From the IMG/VR virus record IMGVR_UViG_2537562231_000015, positions 1-40,123 of that record: DNA of 40,123 bases. The stretch is one strand, 5' to 3'. The stretch's first letter is position 1, and every line of letters starts with the position of its first letter. Below are positions 4,804-23,050 of the stretch, in pieces. A program made the position numbers and the translations under genes. Origin of the DNA: a virus (taxonomy: Duplodnaviria; Heunggongvirae; Uroviricota; Caudoviricetes). Below the pieces are notes generated by a model. That model saw nothing but the letters and a program-made list of their open reading frames with translations, ran no database searches and was not told the origin of the DNA.

Positions 4804-5074
4804 GTTTCAGTTCCTCAATCCGGTGTTGTCGTTGTCTCAGTAGTGCGCTGGTCTGTTCTGCGTCGGCATAGAGTCGCGCCTGCTCCCGGTTGTTGGTTTC
4901 TGTCAGAATGGACAGGCTGATAAGCTGGCTGTTGCTCTTTGCCAGTGCCTGGCTTTTGCTCCGAAGCACATCTGCCTGCATGCTGATGGTCTGGCTGGCA
5001 TCAGCCAGCCGCCACGTCTGCCAGCCCAGCGCCGCCAGTAATAACGCCAGCACAACCAGCAGCAACCGGTTCAT
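4646..5074 (-). CDS. lysB: LysB-like i-spanin (Rz-like)
   Basis: 142-aa ORF with N-terminal hydrophobic segment and coiled-coil-like charged region; follows lysA. Confidence 0.7.
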   Translation of the reverse strand: MNRLLLVVLALLLAALGWQTWRLADASQTISMQADVLRSKSQALAKSNSQLISLSILTETNNREQARLYADAEQTSALLRQRQHRIEELKRENEDLRRWADTPLPADIIRLRERPALTGGAAYRQWLSASDAVSAGAGSAAH

Positions 5075-12466: not shown

Positions 12467-14248
12467 TTATATTTTAGCAAACGTTTCTAACGCCAAGCTA
12501 TCTGTTCTTTCTTTTATTAATGAATCATCCCATTTATGTTCTCTTGCTTCTGACTCACTAACAAACTCTGTAACTAATTTTAAATCAGATTTTTTATAAG
12601 ATTCTATTTTTTTGTGCAACTCATAATTCTTGCAATCTTCATTAAGTGAAAAACAGAGTGGTAGTAAATTACCAATCATACCCACGACTGACTCGTTAGT
12701 TTTGCTTTGAGATGATATGTGTTCCAAAGAAACTATATCCATTTTTAACTCTCGCGTCCCTCGTCTGATACGTTCCAACTTGTCAAAAATATAAACAATC
12801 AACTTCCTTTGCCCAGACTTTTTATTTGTATAAACAATATTCTTTGAAAATGCTTGTTTGAATATATTTTCTGAAGGCCCTTTCTGTGTAAAATAATCTA
12901 ATGCGTCATTAATAACACCCTCAACATCTCTTTTATTTAATGCCTTATTCATTCTTACTGCTAATACAGAATATTTTGCATCGATTCCAGATGGTCTTAG
13001 ACGACATACTGCATTAAACTTAAAGTGAAATGACTCTAAGGACTTCAAACATTCTATCAGCATTGATTGTGTAAGGGCTCTCGGTTTCTCTTTACGTTTT
13101 CTAAGTAATGAGAGTACAAATGGTCGAGGAATACTCACATTAAAAATCTCGAATGCTTTTAACGAGTTGTAAATTTCACGCTGATCAGGTTGAGGCCAGT
13201 CATCTGTATTTGGCGCTATTATTTTACAGTATAATTCAACATCATCATATAATTCGTTCAGAAATGATGCTGATGACAATAAAGTATTCTCATCTTGAAT
13301 CTCACGTTTAAAAGCACGATAAAGTTGATCTTCTCCAATATAATTATACTTAGAAAGCCACCACGTTCTAATATAATCAGCAATAGTGCTATTACTATCC
13401 CTAGACTCAATTTGAGTAACGATATAATCCCATTTTGTTTTTGCAATATCTACCGGATATGTTTGAGTGCAAGTTTGGAATACTTTATTCTTTATCAAAT
13501 CAATTGAACTTAAGTTTATCCCTCGAGCATTCAACACTTCAAAAATATCATAAGCATCATCCTCCTTACCTACAGATATTTTTACCAACTTCAAATAATT
13601 GGTAATCATTCTATATACAGCAGTCAAACAAAATATATAATCTTGGTTATTATAATGTTTTGCACCATCTCGCAACAATGCAGAACAGAGTGATTTCCTC
13701 CCTAGTTTTCTAGAAAGAAAAATTCCTGCATAACTTATACGTACATCCTCTTCACAAGATTCATCAACTTGATGCTCTTCGCGATCTTGATATTTTAACT
13801 TAAAATATGTTCTATCGCTATTTTTTGCTAATTTTTCAATAAATGTCTCACCATTTGAGGCTAATTGGCTTCTGCTAAATGTAGGACTCACAGTAACGAT
13901 ATATGTTTTAAATATATCATCCGCTAATGAATCTTGCCCTAAGGAACGCAATTTACGCGATATTAATGAAAGCAATATAGTAATAACTGAAAATCGTTGT
14001 TGTCCATCAACCACTTCTAATACATCATCACTATCTGCTCCAGAAAGAACAATAGTCCCTATAAAATATTCTGAACACTCCAAGTTCTGTCCATCTTCAT
14101 TCAACCTTATGTTTCTGACAATATCTTGCCATAATTCTTCAAGCTGAAGCTTTTCCCAACTAAACTCACGTTGATTACGTGGAATAACATATCTTTGTTT
14201 TACAGATAGAATGTTTTTTATATTTAGTGGTGTTGCATCAAAATTCAT
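12467..14248 (-). CDS. GmrSD-family (DUF262/ParB-like N-terminal, DUF1524-like C-terminal) putative modification-dependent nuclease
   Basis: 593-aa ORF; N-terminal YVIPRNQREFSW and VVDGQQR motifs typical of DUF262; C-terminal LEHI...GNLLPL resembles the DUF1524 His-Me finger; markedly AT-rich versus flanking phage genes. Confidence 0.65.
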   Translation of the reverse strand: MNFDATPLNIKNILSVKQRYVIPRNQREFSWEKLQLEELWQDIVRNIRLNEDGQNLECSEYFIGTIVLSGADSDDVLEVVDGQQRFSVITILLSLISRKLRSLGQDSLADDIFKTYIVTVSPTFSRSQLASNGETFIEKLAKNSDRTYFKLKYQDREEHQVDESCEEDVRISYAGIFLSRKLGRKSLCSALLRDGAKHYNNQDYIFCLTAVYRMITNYLKLVKISVGKEDDAYDIFEVLNARGINLSSIDLIKNKVFQTCTQTYPVDIAKTKWDYIVTQIESRDSNSTIADYIRTWWLSKYNYIGEDQLYRAFKREIQDENTLLSSASFLNELYDDVELYCKIIAPNTDDWPQPDQREIYNSLKAFEIFNVSIPRPFVLSLLRKRKEKPRALTQSMLIECLKSLESFHFKFNAVCRLRPSGIDAKYSVLAVRMNKALNKRDVEGVINDALDYFTQKGPSENIFKQAFSKNIVYTNKKSGQRKLIVYIFDKLERIRRGTRELKMDIVSLEHISSQSKTNESVVGMIGNLLPLCFSLNEDCKNYELHKKIESYKKSDLKLVTEFVSESEAREHKWDDSLIKERTDSLALETFAKI

Positions 14249-14727: not shown

Positions 14728-15387
14728 TTATTCTGTTGAGATTGTAGATATTTCGGCTTGTTTTTTCTCTATGTACATCCGACATTCCGCAAGGCATTTA
14801 CCTACGGCACCACCGAAGTTTGGCCCTGACGAAAGCAGCAATGCATCGACATTCTTGATTGATTCAAAGAAGGAAGGTGAGGTTTCTGGATTAAGGTATG
14901 TCATCAATAACATCCTTGCTGAAAGGGTGCGATGCGATGATGTAATGTAGCTTTCATGCGCTGCATTTCTCTTATCAATAAAATCGTTATTACCCTTAAG
15001 AATGTAATCCATTGCAAGGTTATAATCGTTTTTGTACCTATTAGATTCAAGCGCTAAGGATAGGTACTGGGCACATGATTCCCGCACGTTCCGACATTCT
15101 TCTTTTTTTATCTCAATTTCCGTAGCAATTTGAGTTTGCACTTTCAGTGCTTTGGTTTGCTGCGCAATATTTTTGTCGAATTCAGATGATTGCCGTTTTG
15201 AGGTGATTTCAAATTGGCGGTGTGAACGATTCATAGCCCGCCATGCAACAAAAGCAGTTGCCGCAGCTGGCAGAACAGCTTTTGCGAGGTCAAACCATGG
15301 AGTCAGGGGCTCCTTTTGACTCGCAATTTGTACCGTTACCACGTCTTTAGCGGGCTTCAGTACTTCCAATAACTGAATGATGTCCAT
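14728..15387 (-). CDS. Hypothetical protein with one predicted transmembrane helix (cargo gene in the old/tin position)
   Basis: 219-aa ORF; hydrophobic segment LAKAVLPAAATAFVAWRAM; no family recognised; lies between cos and the tum/DinI module. Confidence 0.5.
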   Translation of the reverse strand: MDIIQLLEVLKPAKDVVTVQIASQKEPLTPWFDLAKAVLPAAATAFVAWRAMNRSHRQFEITSKRQSSEFDKNIAQQTKALKVQTQIATEIEIKKEECRNVRESCAQYLSLALESNRYKNDYNLAMDYILKGNNDFIDKRNAAHESYITSSHRTLSARMLLMTYLNPETSPSFFESIKNVDALLLSSGPNFGGAVGKCLAECRMYIEKKQAEISTISTE

Positions 15388-15588
15388 TGCCTTTTTCCTG
15401 AGAAAAAGAAACCATCATAGCAAAAAGCCTGCCGCTTGCTAGGGGCTTCCCGCGCCTAACCCTTCACGAAATTGAATCCTCTCCGGCCTTTTCGTTATCT
15501 GTCCGCATTGAGGGCGGCTAACGCCTCGCACGGCTCGTTGTTCAACCTTGCTGGCGCCAGAAGCAAGTTCAGACGCCAGCAACGTTTC

Positions 15589-15822
15589 TTAATGCAGCCA
15601 GCTGTCGTCTTCCCACACCTTCTGCATAATTTTCATCACTTGTTTTCTTTCTTCGTCCAGTTGCAGTCCGGTCAGTTCCACACCGTTAGAGCTACCTTTG
15701 CGGATACGAATTACCGTTTTGGGATACAGGGGGCGCAGATTGCGGTAAAGCTCGGATTCAAGGGCGTCCAGGATAGACTGGCTAATCTTCTGCTCTTTAT
15801 CGATCATTATTTCAATGCGCAT
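15589..15822 (-). CDS. DinI-family protein
   Basis: ORF 15589..15894 trimmed to MRIEIMIDK... preceded by GAGGTGA; aligns along its length with E. coli DinI (MRIEV.I.K...IDAL..EL...WE...W). Confidence 0.8.
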   Translation of the reverse strand: MRIEIMIDKEQKISQSILDALESELYRNLRPLYPKTVIRIRKGSSNGVELTGLQLDEERKQVMKIMQKVWEDDSWLH

Positions 15823-15832
15823 AAAAGTCACC

Positions 15833-16021
15833 TCAACTGATGACATCCATTGAGCGGTTGTATTCGTGGGTTCTGATTTTTGCCATGAGTTCATCTGTTA
15901 GTTCAGAAACCCACTGCAAAGCCAGCCCCTTCTCTTCATCACTACACTCACTAGCCGCTACAAGCTTAAGAAAAAAATCAATGCGCTGGAGCTTCAAAGA
16001 CTCCAAAAAATAGTCCTGCAT
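15833..16021 (-). CDS. Small protein, possible Tum-like antirepressor N-terminal module
   Basis: 62-aa ORF starting MQDYF with GGAGGAAAG SD; LexA box immediately upstream; overlaps the DinI-like start by 11 nt in another frame. Confidence 0.45.
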   Translation of the reverse strand: MQDYFLESLKLQRIDFFLKLVAASECSDEEKGLALQWVSELTDELMAKIRTHEYNRSMDVIS

Positions 16022-16064
16022 CTTTCCTCCTATGACACCACAAGAAATACTGTATACATAACCA

Positions 16065-16080
16065 CTGTTTATATTTACAG
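16065..16080. promoter_or_regulatory. LexA box (SOS operator)
   Basis: CTGTTTATATTTACAG fits CTGT-N8-ACAG, about 45 bp upstream of the MQDYF start. Confidence 0.6.
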
Positions 16081-16174
16081 TATATAATAATCTTACTGAT
16101 GTAAAACGTTTTTTTACGTTCATCAGCCTGATATTCCTGGTATTATTAAGAGCACGAATTGTTAACCCGCGTAA

Positions 16175-18589
16175 TTAATACAGGTTCCGCCACTTATCAT
16201 CTTCCCGCAAACGCTGGTTCCGATAGAAGATACGCAAGCCTGCTCCTGACGGAATACTGCCACCGCGAAGGAGCAAATCGACTTCTTTCTCGCTGCCATC
16301 AAATCCTCTGGACTTCAGTTCATAGACGAGCTGCTGATGCTGATGATCTGTAATTCGCTGTTTGTAGTCTTTACGCCGTTTCGGTTTCACCAAGCGCAAC
16401 CTTGCTGCCAGCTCCCGGCGATCTTTTTTGCTCATACTGTGCAGGTAATCGTGCAATTCCTTGTCATCCATGCGGGTAATGTCCGTTCTGGAGCCCCCAT
16501 CAGCTGATTTGTCTTTCCCTTGTTGGTACAAATTTTCAGCAAGGGGACAGTTATTGCCACGAGTCCAAGGGGCGCAAGCGCCCTGGTCGGCTGCCGCCTC
16601 CTGAACGTCAACGGCTTTACGAACCATTTTCCACTTCACTGCATGAGTGCAGATCTTGCCCTCTGCAATGGGTGACCAGATGCCATAAATACGAATACCG
16701 TGATCGCCATAGGCGGTCGGCTCTTCGTTAATTTCATAAGCAGTTCTGATGAGGTGATATTTACGGGGAACCAGTACACCTCCCTGCTTCATGATATAGG
16801 TGGCAAAACAACCAGCATCAGCAGCAGCCAGAATGGCATCAAGGCGCGGGTTATCCAGTACCGGCACACCTGCTTTTTTGTCACCCTGCTGCCTTGCCGC
16901 CTGACCAGCCAGCAATCGCAGTTCACGGTAAGCCTGACGCCCCGGAATGCCAAAGAAGCGGAATTGCTGAACACGATGCAAAGACGCCCAGGCATTCACG
17001 TATTCAGCATTATCACGCAGAGATTTACCCGTTTCCTTGCTGATCTCGCCAGCCAGACCACGCCCGTCAATGTTCTTGCTGATATATTTCGCGATGTAGC
17101 TTGTCGGCGTTCCTTTGCGCGGGTTAATCAACTCAGACTTAAAGCGTGGTCCCGTGTTATTCCCCAGCTCCTCGCGGTCTTCACGAATGGCAAACTTACG
17201 CAACAAAGCAGTAATGGCGCGGCGATCTTTTTTGCGCATAAAACACAACAGGTGCCAGTGAACTGTACCGTCATGATGCGGCTCAGCCACCCGCACGCCA
17301 TACCAGCGCAATCCGGCTTTGTGCATAGCCTTACGAAATGCAGCAAACATGCCGACCAGATAATCGCTGCTTTGTCTTACTGTCGCGTTGGTCCAGGTCG
17401 GGTTTGGCCTGCCGTTATTTAGCGTGGAATGGAAACGTGACGGACAGGTGATGGTGTAGAAAACGGCGCAGTCACCACGCATTTCCGCGATAAGCTCCAG
17501 ACCTTTAACGCAGGCCATCATCTCATTGCGGCGATGCGCCGGGTTGCTGCTGCTGGCGTTTACCACATCCTCCATGTCCAGCATGTCGCCGTCTTCGTTC
17601 ACCAGTTCATGAGAACGGAAAAACTCCAGCGACTTACGGCGCTGCTCACGTTTATGCATCACGGCTTCATAGCTGACATAGGGAGATGCTTTTTTGCTGA
17701 CCAGACAGACAGCACGCAACTGCTCTTCCCGCCATTCGCAACGCATCTTCCATAATTTCCGATACCACCAGTCGGCGCACAGCATACGCGCCAGCGAACC
17801 CGGAATGAGTTCATAGGGCACAGGTTTGCGGCGGTTTCTTTTCCGGCGGAGTTGCTCAAACGCAGGCGGTATGACATCCAGTCGCAGGGTTTCTGCTGCC
17901 ACCTTTTCCCATGTCTTGCGGATTTCTTCCGGCTTAACATCATCGGAGGCGTACAAATCACCACAAGCGGCATCAAGACACATGCTCATATGCGCAGCGA
18001 CAAGGGTGGACAGGCGTTTCACCTGATCCTGACTCATTTCAGGCAGGATCAGCAGACCGTCCAGCCCTTCATGGCTTGCCATAAAACGAAAAGATGCAGA
18101 TAGCTGGCTGTCGCGTACATGCTCCAGTCGTTCCAGGCATGGCTTAATCGTCTCACGCAAATAGCGGGAATAAGCCTTTGGCCTGCCCAGGTTGCTGAAG
18201 TATTTAATACGTTGCATCAGCGGCTTGCTGATATGGGAAGGCTGGGCGTTGACATCCGCCAGAATGACCATATCCGGATTAAAACGCTGCTGCTCATGCG
18301 CCAGCTTTGCCCGGCTAATTAGCTTATCCTGCTCCATTTCGCGCTGGACAGGATCACGGGATTCATTAAAGAAATAACGCTCCCAGACCTGATCACTCAG
18401 TGCCTCGCGGCGCAGTTGTTCCTGCTCGTTATCGGCAGCGTACAGAGTGATCAGGTTTGAAAGCGCAGAAACCGGCGCAACTTCCGCCGGGTCCAGATAA
18501 GGGTTAATGGCCTTTTTCGGGCTGTTCCATGAGAATGCTGCGGCAGCCTCGTTAAAGCCGCAGCAGTTGTTCATATCGGCATGACTCAT
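16175..18589 (-). CDS. A: Replication initiation protein A (rolling-circle nicking endonuclease)
   Basis: 804-aa ORF; contains [19 protein letters not shown] and [12 protein letters not shown] matching conserved P2 gpA motifs. Confidence 0.9.
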
Positions 18590-20309: not shown

Positions 20310-20503
20310 TGGTTCCCCCGTTTTTTCGTTGATAGTTCTGCCAGCAATTCATCTTGCGAACGGCACGGATGCCAGCGTTTACCATCCTCACCCATGATCC
20401 AGCCGTGACCGTAGTGCATTGCCGGACTTTGTTTTACCAGCAGCGATGCAAATGATGGTTCTTTCGTCAGCATAAGCACCTCACAGCAAACCGAATGAAG
20501 CAC
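20273..20503 (-). CDS. Hypothetical early protein
   Basis: 76-aa ORF directly after cII; start uncertain. Confidence 0.3.
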   Translation of the reverse strand: MLHSVCCEVLMLTKEPSFASLLVKQSPAMHYGHGWIMGEDGKRWHPCRSQDELLAELSTKKRGNQWLLKALRRLFH

Positions 20504-20990
20504 CGAGGCCAGTCACGGTATCAACTGCACTCGCCATCGCAGGATTAGCCTGTAAACGGGCCTGCAATGAAACAGCAGCCAGCGCCATCAGTCGTGTAAC
20601 AGAGTTAATGCTGCTGATCGCATCACGACGGCCTACACTGGTTTTTACATCGCCAGAAACCGCACCTGCCGCGACACGCCCTATCTCTGCAGTTGCACTC
20701 ATGACGTAATGCGGCAGTTTCTCTTTTGCCACCTCATTAATCGGTACACATGGCAGGCAGTGAATCTGTGCCAGAAAACCGTCTACCAGCGTTGAATCTT
20801 CCGTCAGATCGGTAAGTAGCCAGATATCTGGCGCATTGAGCTGATGCGGTTGATCTGGGTTGAGTTTGTTTCGCAGAGTCTGGACATTCATTCCTGCACG
20901 TTCTGCCAGCTTCGCCATATTGTGACGAAGTGCAAAAGCTCTACAGGCTTCATCAAAATGCGGGTGTTTGGAAATCTTATAATCAAACAT
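20481..20990 (-). CDS. cII: CII-like lysogeny-establishment transcriptional activator (phage 186 type)
   Basis: 169-aa ORF; near full-length similarity to my recollection of 186 CII (...SKHPH.DEACRAFA.RHNMAKLAERAGMNVQTLRNKLNP...). Confidence 0.8.
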   Translation of the reverse strand: MFDYKISKHPHFDEACRAFALRHNMAKLAERAGMNVQTLRNKLNPDQPHQLNAPDIWLLTDLTEDSTLVDGFLAQIHCLPCVPINEVAKEKLPHYVMSATAEIGRVAAGAVSGDVKTSVGRRDAISSINSVTRLMALAAVSLQARLQANPAMASAVDTVTGLGASFGLL

Positions 20991-21022: not shown

Positions 21023-21265
21023 TTACTTACCAACAATGACGCGGAAGTTGGAATGACCGAGGGATTCACGGACCTGATCGGTTTTGTACATTAAATAACG
21101 CAGGCTTACGCGGCCTTTGTTTTTTTCTTTCTTGACCATGTATTTAGCAAGCTGACCATGGTGAATTTTTTGATACACGGAGCCGCGGGAGATACCTTCC
21201 CATTCCGCGAACTCTGCAGGCGTAGCCATCTCTTTTGGTACACGAATTGAAATATCAGTGCTCAT
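21023..21265 (-). CDS. apl: Apl/Cox-like excisionase-repressor
   Basis: 80-aa ORF with helix-turn-helix-like segment, first gene of the lytic operon divergent from cI; GGGAGA SD. Confidence 0.6.
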   Translation of the reverse strand: MSTDISIRVPKEMATPAEFAEWEGISRGSVYQKIHHGQLAKYMVKKEKNKGRVSLRYLMYKTDQVRESLGHSNFRVIVGK

Positions 21266-21384: not shown

Positions 21385-22017
21385 ATGATACAGGTAAAGG
21401 TTGGAGAGAATACAGGGGGAAGAGAGGCTATCCATAGACTAATGGCAGCCTATGATTTCAAGTCCAGACAGCAACTTTGCGATCACTTAGGCGCATCAAA
21501 AAGCACCATGGCAAACAGATACTTAAGAGATAGTTTTCCTGCAGAGTGGGTGATTCAGTGCGCCTTGGAAACAGGAGTTTCTTTACTGTGGCTAACCACC
21601 GGACAGGGGGAGCCAGGTCCAAACATTGAACCTAAAAAAAATATCAATTCCGTGAACTCCAGCAAGGTTGTACCTCTTTCTGAACTAGTATCTCCTGAAA
21701 TTGACAAGGCGACTCTCAACGGTGGTTTATTGGTCGATGCTGGAAAAGCAATCATTGATAGCAGCATACTCCCCTCAGACTCAAGCAACCTACTGCTGGT
21801 GACTACTTCTGGTGATTCTTATTTAATAGATCGCAACCAAACACCACCAGTAAATGGTATGTGGTTAGTCGATATCGACGGGATAAAAAGCATCGTTAAA
21901 TTGACTCGACTCCCGGGAAACAAATTAGTAGTGCATCAGGATGATTCATCGTTTGAGTGCGGTCTGGATGACATTGAGGTAGTAGGCCGCGCACTGAAAA
22001 TCATTAAGAGCCTTTGA
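21385..22017 (+). CDS. cI: CI-like immunity repressor
   Basis: 210-aa ORF with N-terminal HTH-like segment; followed immediately by int as in 186. Confidence 0.7.
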   Translation: MIQVKVGENTGGREAIHRLMAAYDFKSRQQLCDHLGASKSTMANRYLRDSFPAEWVIQCALETGVSLLWLTTGQGEPGPNIEPKKNINSVNSSKVVPLSELVSPEIDKATLNGGLLVDAGKAIIDSSILPSDSSNLLLVTTSGDSYLIDRNQTPPVNGMWLVDIDGIKSIVKLTRLPGNKLVVHQDDSSFECGLDDIEVVGRALKIIKSL

Positions 22018-22018
22018 T

Positions 22019-23050
22019 ATGACCATCAGAAAACAGCCGAACGGAAAATGGTTGTGTGAGTGCTATCCCAATGGACGCAATGGCAAGCGCGTGCGTAAGC
22101 AATTTGCCACGAAAGGCGAAGCCATTGCGTTTGAAAGCTTCACAATGGAAGAAGTGAATAAAAAACCGTGGTTGGGTGAAAAGGATGATCGGCGACGCCT
22201 ATCAGAATTAATTGAGCTTTGGTATTCCCTGTATGGTCAGACACTCGCAGACCCCAAGCGCCTCATGGCGAAACTTAGAATTATCTGTAATGGTCTAGGC
22301 GACCCCATCGCCTCTGAGCTGACAGCCGGAGACTTTACGAAATACCGCGAAGCACGGTTAAAAGGTGAAATACGAAATGAAGATGGCACGCTTATGTCGC
22401 CCGTTAAGCCCCGCACGGTAAACCTTGAACAGCGCAATCTATCATCGGTGTTCGGTACATTAAAAAAACTAGGACACTGGTCAGCACCAAACCCGCTGGC
22501 AGGACTTCCGACCTTCAAAATTGCCGAAGGTGAGCTGGCTTTTCTTTCCACGGACGAAATCAAGCGCCTGTTGGCGGCATGTGCTGAATCTCAAAGCCCT
22601 AGCTTACTAATGATTGCAAAAATATGCCTAGCTACTGGCGCACGGTGGAGTGAAGCAGAAAATCTGCAGGGCCATCAGTTATCCAAATACCGCATCACTT
22701 ATACCAAGACGAAGGGCAAGAAAAACCGTACCGTGCCAATATCTCAGGATCTTTACAACGAACTCCCTAAAAACAGAGGAAGGCTATTCACCCCATGCAG
22801 AAAAGCCTTTGAACGGGCAGTAAAACGAGCTGGTATTGAACTGCCAGAGGGACAATGCACCCACGTTCTACGCCATACATTCGCCAGCCATTTCATGATG
22901 AACGGCGGAAACATACTGGTACTGCGCGATATTTTGGGCCATGCCGATATAAAAATGACGATGATTTACGCCCATTTTTCTCCAGACCATCTGGAAGATG
23001 CAGTAACGAAAAACCCTTTGAACTTTATATACTTGTCGAATAACATGTAA
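22019..23050 (+). CDS. int: Tyrosine integrase (P2/186 type)
   Basis: 343-aa ORF; C-terminal HVLRHTFASHFMMNGG...LGHADIKMTMIYAHF catalytic motifs. Confidence 0.9.
   Translation: MTIRKQPNGKWLCECYPNGRNGKRVRKQFATKGEAIAFESFTMEEVNKKPWLGEKDDRRRLSELIELWYSLYGQTLADPKRLMAKLRIICNGLGDPIASELTAGDFTKYREARLKGEIRNEDGTLMSPVKPRTVNLEQRNLSSVFGTLKKLGHWSAPNPLAGLPTFKIAEGELAFLSTDEIKRLLAACAESQSPSLLMIAKICLATGARWSEAENLQGHQLSKYRITYTKTKGKKNRTVPISQDLYNELPKNRGRLFTPCRKAFERAVKRAGIELPEGQCTHVLRHTFASHFMMNGGNILVLRDILGHADIKMTMIYAHFSPDHLEDAVTKNPLNFIYLSNNM

What the first reader, a model, noticed from the sequence alone, without database searches (positions are those of the whole stretch)
15589..16080. LexA-boxed operon with a DinI-like gene and a separate upstream small ORF (possible split Tum)
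A CTGT-N8-ACAG LexA box precedes a 62-aa ORF that overlaps, in a different frame, a clear DinI-family ORF. In phage 186 the SOS-induced tum antirepressor is, as I recall it, a single gene with a DinI-like C-terminal part. Here the parts are separate, which could be a frameshifted pseudogene, a programmed frameshift, or a genuinely bipartite arrangement.
Basis: partly seen in the sequence, partly recalled or inferred. Interest (0 to 1): 0.45.

Follow-up and report, generated by a model that had tools for sequence, protein, structure and literature searches.

The report
Split Tum antirepressor SOS operon (known)
This is the DNA-damage switch of a P2/186-family prophage, in which a LexA-repressed promoter drives a small antirepressor gene and a separate DinI-like gene; the same two-gene layout is already described for phages Fels-2 and PSP3, so it is ordinary.

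Summary
The features are real, on the minus strand just downstream of the replication gene A. A LexA box (20-mer at 16082..16063, 17/20 to consensus) overlaps the -10 of a promoter laid out like 186 p95. It precedes a 62-aa ORF (16021..15833) and a 77-aa DinI-family ORF (15822..15589).

The reported overlap is an artefact of the longest possible ORF. The DinI gene starts at its own Shine-Dalgarno-preceded ATG, 10 nt after the ORF1 stop.

ORF1 is 98% identical to Fels-2 STM2728. Profile comparison shows it is homologous to residues 5-49 of 186 Tum (hhalign 97%, E 1.7e-11). ORF2 is 41% identical to Tum 71-145 and 77% identical to PSP3 TumB.

So this is a genuinely two-gene "split Tum". It is not a pseudogene or a programmed frameshift, because the frame offset between the genes varies (+1, +2, 0) among relatives.

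The split is already in the literature for Fels-2 and PSP3 (Lemire 2011, citing Bunny 2002) and is annotated as tumA/tumB in the PSP3 GenBank record. The locus occurs in about 21% of complete E. coli genomes. The prophage also carries the matching 186-type CI repressor, which has no S24 peptidase domain.

Verdict: correct reading, already known, low interest.

The parts
16100..16105 (-). Putative -35 hexamer TTTACA of the SOS promoter (counterpart of 186 p95).
   Evidence: Read from the sequence. It lies 17 nt upstream of TACTGT; the annotated 186 p95 has TTCACA, an 18-nt spacer and TACTGT. TTTACA is an invariant island in a promoter alignment whose flanks have diverged. The consensus promoter scan did not call it, because TACTGT matches only 3 of 6 positions.
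16063..16082 (-). LexA operator 20-mer TACTGTAAATATAAACAGTG. Its first six bases, TACTGT (16082..16077), double as the putative -10.
   Evidence: Exact CTGT-N8-ACAG. 17/20 to consensus, the only such site in the window, 0 in 100 shuffles. A LexA box is present at the same position in 11 of 11 related loci, including 186, PSP3 and Fels-2. In 186 the equivalent site is annotated as the LexA site overlapping the p95 -10.
16048..16067 (-). Conserved extra element CAGTGGTTATGTATACAGTA. It has one perfect LexA half-site (ATACAGTA) and a degenerate partner half, and it overlaps the main box by 5 nt.
   Evidence: Read from the sequence. The GGTTATnTnTACAGTAT block is conserved among Fels-2-like relatives whose neighbouring sequence has diverged. 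It is absent from 186. Function not tested.
16026..16031 (-). Shine-Dalgarno sequence AGGAGG of ORF1.
   Evidence: Read from the sequence. Invariant in the promoter alignment.
15833..16021 (-). tumA-like gene: 62 aa, predicted antirepressor, homologue of the N-terminal part of 186 Tum.
   Evidence: 98.4% identical to Fels-2 STM2728 and 100% identical in many Klebsiella and E. coli P2-like phages. phrog_698 at E 3.6e-38. hhalign to the Tum-N family: 97.3%, E 1.7e-11. AlphaFold2 predicts a two-helix hairpin, pLDDT 88. No Pfam, NCBIfam or PADLOC family.
15823..15832 (-). 10-nt spacer GGTGACTTTT between the two genes. The ORF2 Shine-Dalgarno sequence GAGGTGA spans the ORF1 stop codon and the start of this spacer.
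   Evidence: Spacer length varies among relatives: 3 nt (PSP3), 10 (Fels-2), 11 (SopEPhi, ST437phi4.1), 12 (MLG42), which gives different frame offsets. A weak 6-bp hairpin covers the stop codon and the Shine-Dalgarno sequence, but the junction sequences of SopEPhi, ST437phi4.1 and MLG42 differ, so it does not look conserved (judged by eye, not folded).
15589..15822 (-). tumB/dinI-like gene: 77 aa, DinI family.
   Evidence: Pfam DinI at E 1.3e-22. phrog_189 positions 71-148. 41% identical to 186 Tum 71-145. 77% identical to PSP3 TumB. Below the NCBIfam cut-off for the chromosomal DinI equivalog (42 bits against 111).
15544..15586 (-). Strong hairpin (11-bp core stem) immediately after the dinI-like stop codon, with no U-tract. 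Possible partial terminator or RNA-stabilising element.
   Evidence: Found in the RNA fold of 15385-15600. Not called by the terminator scan. It occupies the position of the partial terminator t95a in 186. Function inferred only.
21385..22017 (+). cI: 210-aa 186-type immunity repressor, the presumed target of the antirepressor.
   Evidence: Pfam Phage_CI_repr (E 5.4e-31) plus Phage_CI_C (E 5.6e-28), with no S24 peptidase domain. 34% identical to 186 CI and 58% to Fels-2 CI. Flanked by an Apl/Cox-like gene (21265..21023, minus), a CII/CP76 gene (20990..20481, minus) and int (22019-23050, plus).

Best explanation
This is the SOS-induction module of a Fels-2-like (P2/186-family, Peduoviridae) prophage, in the two-gene 'split tum' form.

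Proposed mechanism:
1. In an undamaged cell, host LexA binds the operator that overlaps the -10 of a promoter lying between the replication gene A and the small genes. The operon stays off.
2. DNA damage activates RecA, LexA cleaves itself, and the promoter fires.
3. The first gene makes a 62-aa two-helix protein, homologous to the N-terminal part of 186 Tum and equivalent to PSP3 TumA.
4. That protein binds the prophage's 186-type CI repressor, which cannot be cleaved through RecA, and stops it binding its operators. This switches the prophage to lytic growth.
5. The second gene makes a free-standing DinI-family protein, equivalent to PSP3 TumB and to the truncated Tum products of 186. It most likely modulates the RecA filament or SOS signal, or the strength of induction.

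Shown here: the sequence features, their conservation, the homologies and the gene context. Inferred from 186, PSP3 and Fels-2: LexA binding, CI binding and the modulatory role of the DinI-like protein.
For: LexA box: 17/20 to consensus, unique in the window. It sits in the same promoter layout as the annotated 186 p95. It is conserved in 11 of 11 related loci, and together with the -35 it forms a conserved island in otherwise diverged flanks.

ORF1: 98.4% identical to Fels-2 STM2728 and homologous to Tum 5-49 at profile level.

ORF2: DinI family, homologous to Tum 71-145 and to PSP3 TumB.

Annotation and literature: the PSP3 GenBank record names tumA 'similar to 5' end 186 tum; UV induction of prophage' and tumB 'similar to dinI and 3' end of 186 tum'. 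Lemire et al. 2011 (PMC3121763) state that Fels-2 and PSP3 have tum split in two, and that the upstream PSP3 gene carries the antirepressor activity. The 186 record annotates an internal GTG-initiated 76-aa DinI-like product that 'modulates SOS induction'.

Context: the same prophage encodes a 186-type CI without a peptidase domain, plus Apl/Cox and CII. The position is the same as in 186, Fels-2 and PSP3: after gene A and before the cargo region and the portal gene.
Against: There is no experimental evidence for this particular prophage.

ORF1 has no pairwise BLAST similarity to 186 Tum or to PSP3 TumA, so the link rests on profile methods and on identity to the Fels-2 gene.

The antirepressor activity of the upstream gene was reported for PSP3 only as a personal communication. 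PSP3 TumA is only about 19% identical to ORF1.

Phages carrying a 98-100% identical ORF1 have CI repressors only 40-58% identical to this one. That is unexpected for a tightly repressor-specific antirepressor.
Confidence: 0.85

Rival explanations
1. Frameshifted pseudogene: a single 186-like tum gene was broken by an indel, or by a sequencing error, near 15822-15835.
For: 186 tum is a single 146-aa gene covering both parts. The two ORFs here are in different frames, and the spacer contains a T4 run.
Against: The same two-ORF structure, with an identical junction, is found in Fels-2, an independent record. ORF1 is at least 99% identical in 39 phage records. The locus is in 1125 of 5426 complete E. 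coli genomes. Both ORFs have their own Shine-Dalgarno sequence and start codon. None of 66 diverse representatives of the ORF1 family has room for a fused DinI domain after the ORF1-like match. The family is conserved as a roughly 60-75-aa protein down to about 32% identity. Some relatives carry the tumA-like gene with no dinI at all.
Confidence: 0.02
2. Programmed +1 frameshift or stop-codon readthrough joins ORF1 to the DinI-like ORF, producing a Tum-like fusion alongside the separate products.
For: The ORF2 reading frame is open upstream to 15894, overlapping the end of ORF1. A +1 shift at the AGU-UGA stop would read ...VEVTF-MRIEI... in frame. In PSP3 and MLG42 the two ORFs are in frame and separated by a single TAG.
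Against: The frame relation is not conserved: +1 in the window and Fels-2, +2 in SopEPhi and ST437phi4.1, 0 in MLG42 and PSP3. I found no recognisable slippery site in the sequence: GCA AAA AUC is not an X XXY YYZ heptamer, and AGU UGA is not a prfB-like CUU UGA with an upstream Shine-Dalgarno sequence (my reading). ORF2 has its own conserved Shine-Dalgarno sequence and ATG. 186 itself makes the DinI part separately from an internal start.
Confidence: 0.03
3. The operon is SOS-regulated, but ORF1 is not the antirepressor of this prophage's CI. It may have another SOS-linked role, or act on a different repressor, and the prophage may be non-inducible or induced by another route.
For: ORF1 has no annotated function in Pfam, NCBIfam or PADLOC, and PGAP calls it a hypothetical protein. 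An identical ORF1 is found with CI proteins only 40-58% identical. The functional evidence for the split form is indirect.
Against: ORF1 is homologous to the N-terminal part of Tum. It always sits under a LexA box in phages with 186-type CI. Tum-N-like genes persist without dinI in several phages, which fits the N-terminal part being the essential induction function. CI has no S24 peptidase domain, so some antirepressor is needed if the prophage is SOS-inducible.
Confidence: 0.1

Closest known systems
Fels-2 (Salmonella LT2) STM2728 / STM2726.1, the split tum locus
   Same: ORF1 is 98.4% identical to STM2728. Gene sizes are the same (189 and 234 bp), the 10-nt spacer and +1 offset are the same, the LexA 20-mer is identical, and the position after gpA is the same. 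The split is described in the literature.
   Different: The CI repressor is only 58% identical (NTD 80%, CTD 51%). The downstream cargo differs: Fels-2 has a 243-aa ORF and a 565-aa ORF, while this prophage has a 219-aa unknown ORF plus a GmrSD-type enzyme.
PSP3 tumA / tumB
   Same: LexA box, then a gene of about 60 aa similar to the 5' end of tum, then a 77-aa DinI-like gene. TumB is 77% identical to ORF2. The GenBank record annotates tumA as needed for UV induction.
   Different: TumA is only about 19% identical to ORF1 and gives no pairwise BLAST hit. The PSP3 genes are in frame and separated by TAG plus 3 nt.
Coliphage 186 tum (p95 SOS operon)
   Same: Same promoter and LexA-box layout, same genomic position, and homologous N-terminal and DinI-like parts. 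186 also makes a separate DinI-like product from an internal GTG with its own Shine-Dalgarno sequence.
   Different: In 186 the two parts form one 146-aa reading frame. orf97 follows in 186 and is unrelated to the 219-aa ORF here. 186 lacks the extra conserved LexA half-site downstream of the box.
Gifsy-1/2/3 dinI-gfoA/gftA operons (Lemire et al. 2011)
   Same: A LexA-controlled prophage operon encodes a DinI homologue together with a small antirepressor that acts on a non-cleavable repressor.
   Different: The gene order is reversed (dinI first). Lemire et al. describe these as lambdoid phages with a different repressor family; I did not compare GfoA or GftA with ORF1.

Membership tests
186 Tum-type SOS antirepressor module, split tumA/tumB form (Fels-2 / PSP3) | A LexA operator overlaps the promoter immediately upstream. 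| tested here: met
   20-mer at 16082..16063, 17/20 to consensus, unique in the window, conserved in 11 of 11 relatives, same layout as the annotated 186 p95.
186 Tum-type SOS antirepressor module, split tumA/tumB form (Fels-2 / PSP3) | The first gene is homologous to the N-terminal (non-DinI) part of Tum. | tested here: met
   hhalign 97.3%, E 1.7e-11 against the Tum-N family. 94.5%, E 7.6e-8 against 186 Tum alone. PHROG cross-hits. 98.4% identity to Fels-2 STM2728. Pairwise BLASTP to 186 Tum and to PSP3 TumA is negative.
186 Tum-type SOS antirepressor module, split tumA/tumB form (Fels-2 / PSP3) | A separate DinI-like gene lies directly downstream with its own start. | tested here: met
   77-aa ORF at 15822..15589 with Shine-Dalgarno GAGGTGA. 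77% identical to PSP3 TumB.
186 Tum-type SOS antirepressor module, split tumA/tumB form (Fels-2 / PSP3) | Located after replication gene A, in a P2/186-family prophage that has a 186-type (non-S24) CI repressor. | tested here: met
   gpA-like 804-aa ORF at 16175..18589. CI with Phage_CI_repr plus Phage_CI_C. Apl/Cox, CII and int nearby.
186 Tum-type SOS antirepressor module, split tumA/tumB form (Fels-2 / PSP3) | The protein binds CI and blocks operator binding, and the prophage is induced in a LexA-dependent way. | not testable with these tools
   Known for 186 Tum (Shearwin 1998, cited in PMC3121763 and PMC7708051). Reported for PSP3 and Fels-2 through Bunny 2002, as cited.
DinI family (Pfam PF06183) | Sequence match above the Pfam gathering threshold. 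| tested here: met
   80.4 bits against a 24.2-bit cut-off, E 1.3e-22, covering profile positions 1-63 of 63.
Chromosomal DinI (NCBIfam NF007893 equivalog) | Score above the equivalog cut-off. | tested here: not met
   42 bits against a 111-bit cut-off. It is a phage DinI-family paralogue, not the host dinI orthologue.
Programmed ribosomal frameshift gene pair | A conserved frame relation and slippery site, with no independent initiation of the downstream ORF. | tested here: not met
   The frame offset varies among relatives (+1, +2, 0). The downstream ORF has its own conserved Shine-Dalgarno sequence and ATG. I saw no recognisable slippery motif.

The most novel reading that the evidence does not exclude
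The TumA-like antirepressor may not be immunity-specific. Phages carrying a 98-100% identical TumA have CI repressors that are only 40-58% identical overall, with the HTH N-terminal domain kept at 62-80% and the C-terminal domain at 30-51%. This TumA type may therefore recognise a conserved surface of the CI DNA-binding domain, which would let it cross-induce co-resident P2-like prophages of different immunity.

Two further features could make this operon differ from 186 p95. The conserved extra LexA half-site could give a two-dimer operator. Read-through past the U-less hairpin could place the downstream defence cargo (the 219-aa unknown ORF plus GmrSD) under SOS control.
Probability: 0.15. 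Interest if true: 0.35.

Novelty: already known. Interest (0 to 1): 0.1.

Why it matters
It matters little beyond annotation. The 62-aa gene is labelled 'hypothetical protein' by PGAP in more than a thousand E. coli genomes and has no Pfam or NCBIfam model. It is nevertheless the probable SOS antirepressor that decides whether these very common P2/Fels-2-like prophages are induced. Recognising it as tumA-like would improve predictions of prophage inducibility. The mismatch between identical TumA proteins and diverged CI repressors hints at prophage cross-talk and could be tested cheaply.

Tried and rejected
- Pairwise BLASTP of ORF1 against 186 Tum and against PSP3 TumA gave no alignment. Homology only became visible with profiles.
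- The word-indexed homologue search returned only relatives above 80% identity in its listed top 120, so it was useless for profile building. The exhaustive representative search supplied the diverse set.
- Foldseek of the AlphaFold2 model of ORF1 against the PDB gave only generic two-helix hairpins (best E 0.49: ExoVII small subunit, Get1, designed proteins), so it is uninformative.
- The consensus promoter scan found no sigma-70 promoter, because the -10 is the weak TACTGT inside the LexA box. I placed the promoter by analogy with the annotated 186 p95 and by conservation.
- The small hairpin over the ORF1 stop and ORF2 Shine-Dalgarno sequence was considered as a translational-coupling device. 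The junction sequences of SopEPhi, ST437phi4.1 and MLG42 differ, so I do not rely on it; I judged this by eye and did not fold those junctions.
- The 219-aa downstream ORF was compared with 186 Orf97 and Fels-2 STM2726. It is unrelated to both.
- Bunny, Liu and Roth 2002 (PMC151935) is not held in the library, so it is cited only through Lemire 2011.
- A search for 'TumA/TumB' in papers returned only unrelated hits.

Full report
**What is in the sequence.** All features lie on the minus strand, directly downstream of an 804-aa P2/186-type replication gene A (16175..18589). Read on the minus strand, the intergenic region contains, in order:
- a hairpin (16127..16095) that overlaps a TTTACA hexamer (16105..16100);
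- a 17-nt spacer;
- TACTGT (16082..16077), which is the first six bases of the 20-mer TACTGTAAATATAAACAGTG (16082..16063);
- a second element, CAGTGGTTATGTATACAGTA (16067..16048);
- AGGAGG (16031..16026);
- the ATG at 16021.

ORF1 runs 16021..15833 (62 aa). After a 10-nt spacer (GGTGACTTTT), whose start together with the ORF1 stop codon forms a GAGGTGA Shine-Dalgarno sequence, ORF2 runs 15822..15589 (77 aa). A strong hairpin without a U-tract follows at 15586..15544.

**Checking the observation.** The bare motif has one other hit in the window, at 4900 with a GC-rich spacer, and about 0.44 hits are expected by chance. The full 20-mer is the only site within 3 mismatches of the LexA consensus, against none in 100 shuffles.

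The 62-aa ORF and the DinI-family ORF are real (Pfam DinI, E 1.3e-22). The "overlap in a different frame" is an artefact of taking the longest ORF (101 aa, from the ATG at 15894). DinI homology begins at the Met at 15822, and all annotated homologues start there. So the genes are adjacent, not overlapping. ORF2 is in the +1 frame relative to ORF1.

**What it is.** The window is a P2/186-family prophage. It has:
- a 186-type CI (21385-22017; Pfam Phage_CI_repr plus Phage_CI_C, no S24 peptidase domain);
- an Apl/Cox-like gene;
- a CII (CP76) gene;
- an integrase;
- a Dam-like methylase;
- gpA, portal and terminase.

ORF2 is 41% identical to residues 71-145 of 186 Tum (E 9e-25) and 77% identical to PSP3 TumB.

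ORF1 gives no pairwise BLASTP alignment with 186 Tum or PSP3 TumA, but three lines of evidence link it to Tum:
- It is 98.4% identical to Fels-2 STM2728, and 100% identical to the corresponding ORF of many Klebsiella and E. coli P2-like phages.
- It belongs to phrog_698, which 186 Tum residues 1-70 also hit (E 5.9e-6). Both sequences also hit phrog_8554 and phrog_1993.
- A profile of 28 diverse ORF1 relatives (from, aligned) matches an alignment of Tum-N sequences (186, ENT90, Yen06.16-2, PSP3 TumA). The hhalign probability is 97.3% and E is 1.7e-11, pairing ORF1 residues 5-48 with Tum residues 5-49. Against 186 Tum alone the values are 94.5% and E 7.6e-8.

The same Yersinia phage ORFs are hit weakly by both ORF1 and Tum-N in tblastn. 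ORF1 is therefore a homologue of the N-terminal, non-DinI part of Tum. AlphaFold2 predicts a two-helix hairpin (pLDDT 88). The fold search was uninformative.

**Promoter and operator.** In 186, the annotated p95 promoter has -35 TTCACA, an 18-nt spacer and -10 TACTGT, and the LexA site starts at the -10. The window has the same layout, with TTTACA, 17 nt and TACTGT.

A LexA box lies upstream of the tumA-like gene in all 11 loci examined: the window, Fels-2, PSP3, SopEPhi, ST437phi4.1, MLG42, 186, ESSI2_ev015, ESSI-2, Yen06.16-2 and ENT90. In an alignment of six Fels-2-like promoter regions with diverged flanks, four conserved islands stand out: the -35, the LexA box, the downstream half-site element and the Shine-Dalgarno sequence.

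**Pseudogene or frameshift?** Neither is supported.
- The split form is conserved in independent records with an identical junction (Fels-2), and ORF1 is at least 99% identical in 39 phage records.
- The locus is present in 1125 of 5426 complete E. coli genomes, where PGAP annotates 'hypothetical protein' plus 'DinI-like family protein'.
- The spacer length differs between relatives, and so does the frame offset: +1 (window, Fels-2), +2 (SopEPhi, ST437phi4.1), 0 with a TAG stop (MLG42, PSP3). A programmed shift would need a conserved frame relation.
- Each gene has its own Shine-Dalgarno sequence.
- Several phages keep only the tumA-like gene under the LexA box and have no dinI (ESSI-2, ESSI2_ev015, ENT90, Yen06.16-2).
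- None of 66 diverse representatives of the ORF1 family has room for a fused DinI domain after the ORF1-like match.
- 186 itself is annotated as producing a separate 76-aa DinI-like product from an internal GTG, preceded by AAGGAGG, which 'modulates SOS induction'.

**How it most likely works.** LexA represses the promoter. After DNA damage, LexA self-cleaves and the operon is transcribed. The TumA-like protein binds CI and prevents operator binding, as shown for 186 Tum (Shearwin 1998, cited in PMC3121763 and PMC7708051). The DinI-like protein acts as a modulator. The CI here has no peptidase domain, so an antirepressor route is the expected path to SOS induction. LexA binding, CI binding and the modulator role are inferred, not shown here.

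**Comparison with what is known.** Lemire et al. [quoted passage not shown] E. Christie. The PSP3 GenBank record names the genes tumA and tumB. The window's locus is essentially the Fels-2 allele.

**Side observations.**
- Phages with a 98-100% identical TumA carry CI proteins that are only 40-58% identical to this one. The N-terminal HTH domain is more conserved (62-80%) than the C-terminal domain (30-51%). This suggests that this TumA type is not tightly immunity-specific and may target the DNA-binding domain.
- Homology with related phages ends at about 15517. Beyond that lies cargo in the classic P2 variable region before the portal gene. It consists of a 219-aa ORF with no hit in Pfam, PHROGs, NCBIfam or PADLOC, whose DNA is absent from the 5426 E. 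coli genomes, followed by a GmrSD-type enzyme.

**Verdict.** The 'split Tum' interpretation is supported in its bipartite form. Novelty: already known. Interest: low.

Noticed in passing
window 16048-16067 (minus strand CAGTGGTTATGTATACAGTA): An extra perfect LexA half-site (ATACAGTA) with a degenerate partner half lies just downstream of the main box and overlaps it by 5 nt. It is conserved among Fels-2-like relatives with diverged flanks and is absent from 186. It could be a second, cooperative LexA site or a 5'-UTR element.
   Followed up: partly
window 21385-22017 (cI) compared with 15833-16021 (tumA-like); loci L012, L013, L014: Phages with a 98-100% identical TumA have CI repressors only 40-58% identical to this one (N-terminal domain 62-80%, C-terminal domain 30-51%). 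The antirepressor does not co-vary with immunity type, which hints at broad specificity or cross-induction.
   Followed up: partly
window 14728-15387 (minus strand): A 219-aa ORF lies directly downstream of the SOS operon on the same strand, in the position of 186 orf97. It has no hit in Pfam, PHROGs, NCBIfam or PADLOC and is unrelated to 186 Orf97 and Fels-2 STM2726. Its DNA is not found in any of 5426 complete E. coli genomes, although the neighbouring gene is. It is a candidate novel cargo or defence gene.
   Followed up: partly
window 12467-14248 (minus strand): A 593-aa GmrSD-type (DUF262/DUF1524) type IV restriction-like enzyme (PADLOC HEC-06/'Orf5', E 7e-75) lies between the unknown ORF and the portal gene, in the variable cargo region of P2-like phages.
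   Followed up: partly
window 15544-15586 (minus strand): A strong hairpin with an 11-bp core stem lies right after the dinI-like stop codon, with no U-tract. It sits where 186 has the partial terminator t95a. Whether transcription reads through into the cargo genes is unknown.
   Followed up: no
window 16095-16127 (minus strand): A palindrome between the gpA stop and the SOS promoter overlaps the -35 (z-score -3.2 against shuffles for the folded 16083-16180 stretch that contains it). Lemire et al. noted terminator-like palindromes preceding the LexA boxes of the Gifsy phages.
   Followed up: no
locus L013 (Klebsiella phage ST258-KPC3phi16.2, 104-982): The annotated CI of this phage is 292 aa and contains two tandem copies of the CI HTH domain, an unusual duplicated repressor. 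The phage carries a TumA identical to the window's.
   Followed up: no
loci L005, L006, L010, L011 (Yen06.16-2, ENT90, ESSI2_ev015, ESSI-2): These P2-like phages have a LexA-boxed tumA-like gene and no DinI-like gene, so the DinI module is dispensable and the N-terminal part is the conserved core.
   Followed up: partly
window 4900-4915: This is the only other CTGT-N8-ACAG match in the window (CTGTCAGAATGGACAG). It has a GC-rich spacer and lies inside the structural-gene region, so it is probably a chance match.
   Followed up: no
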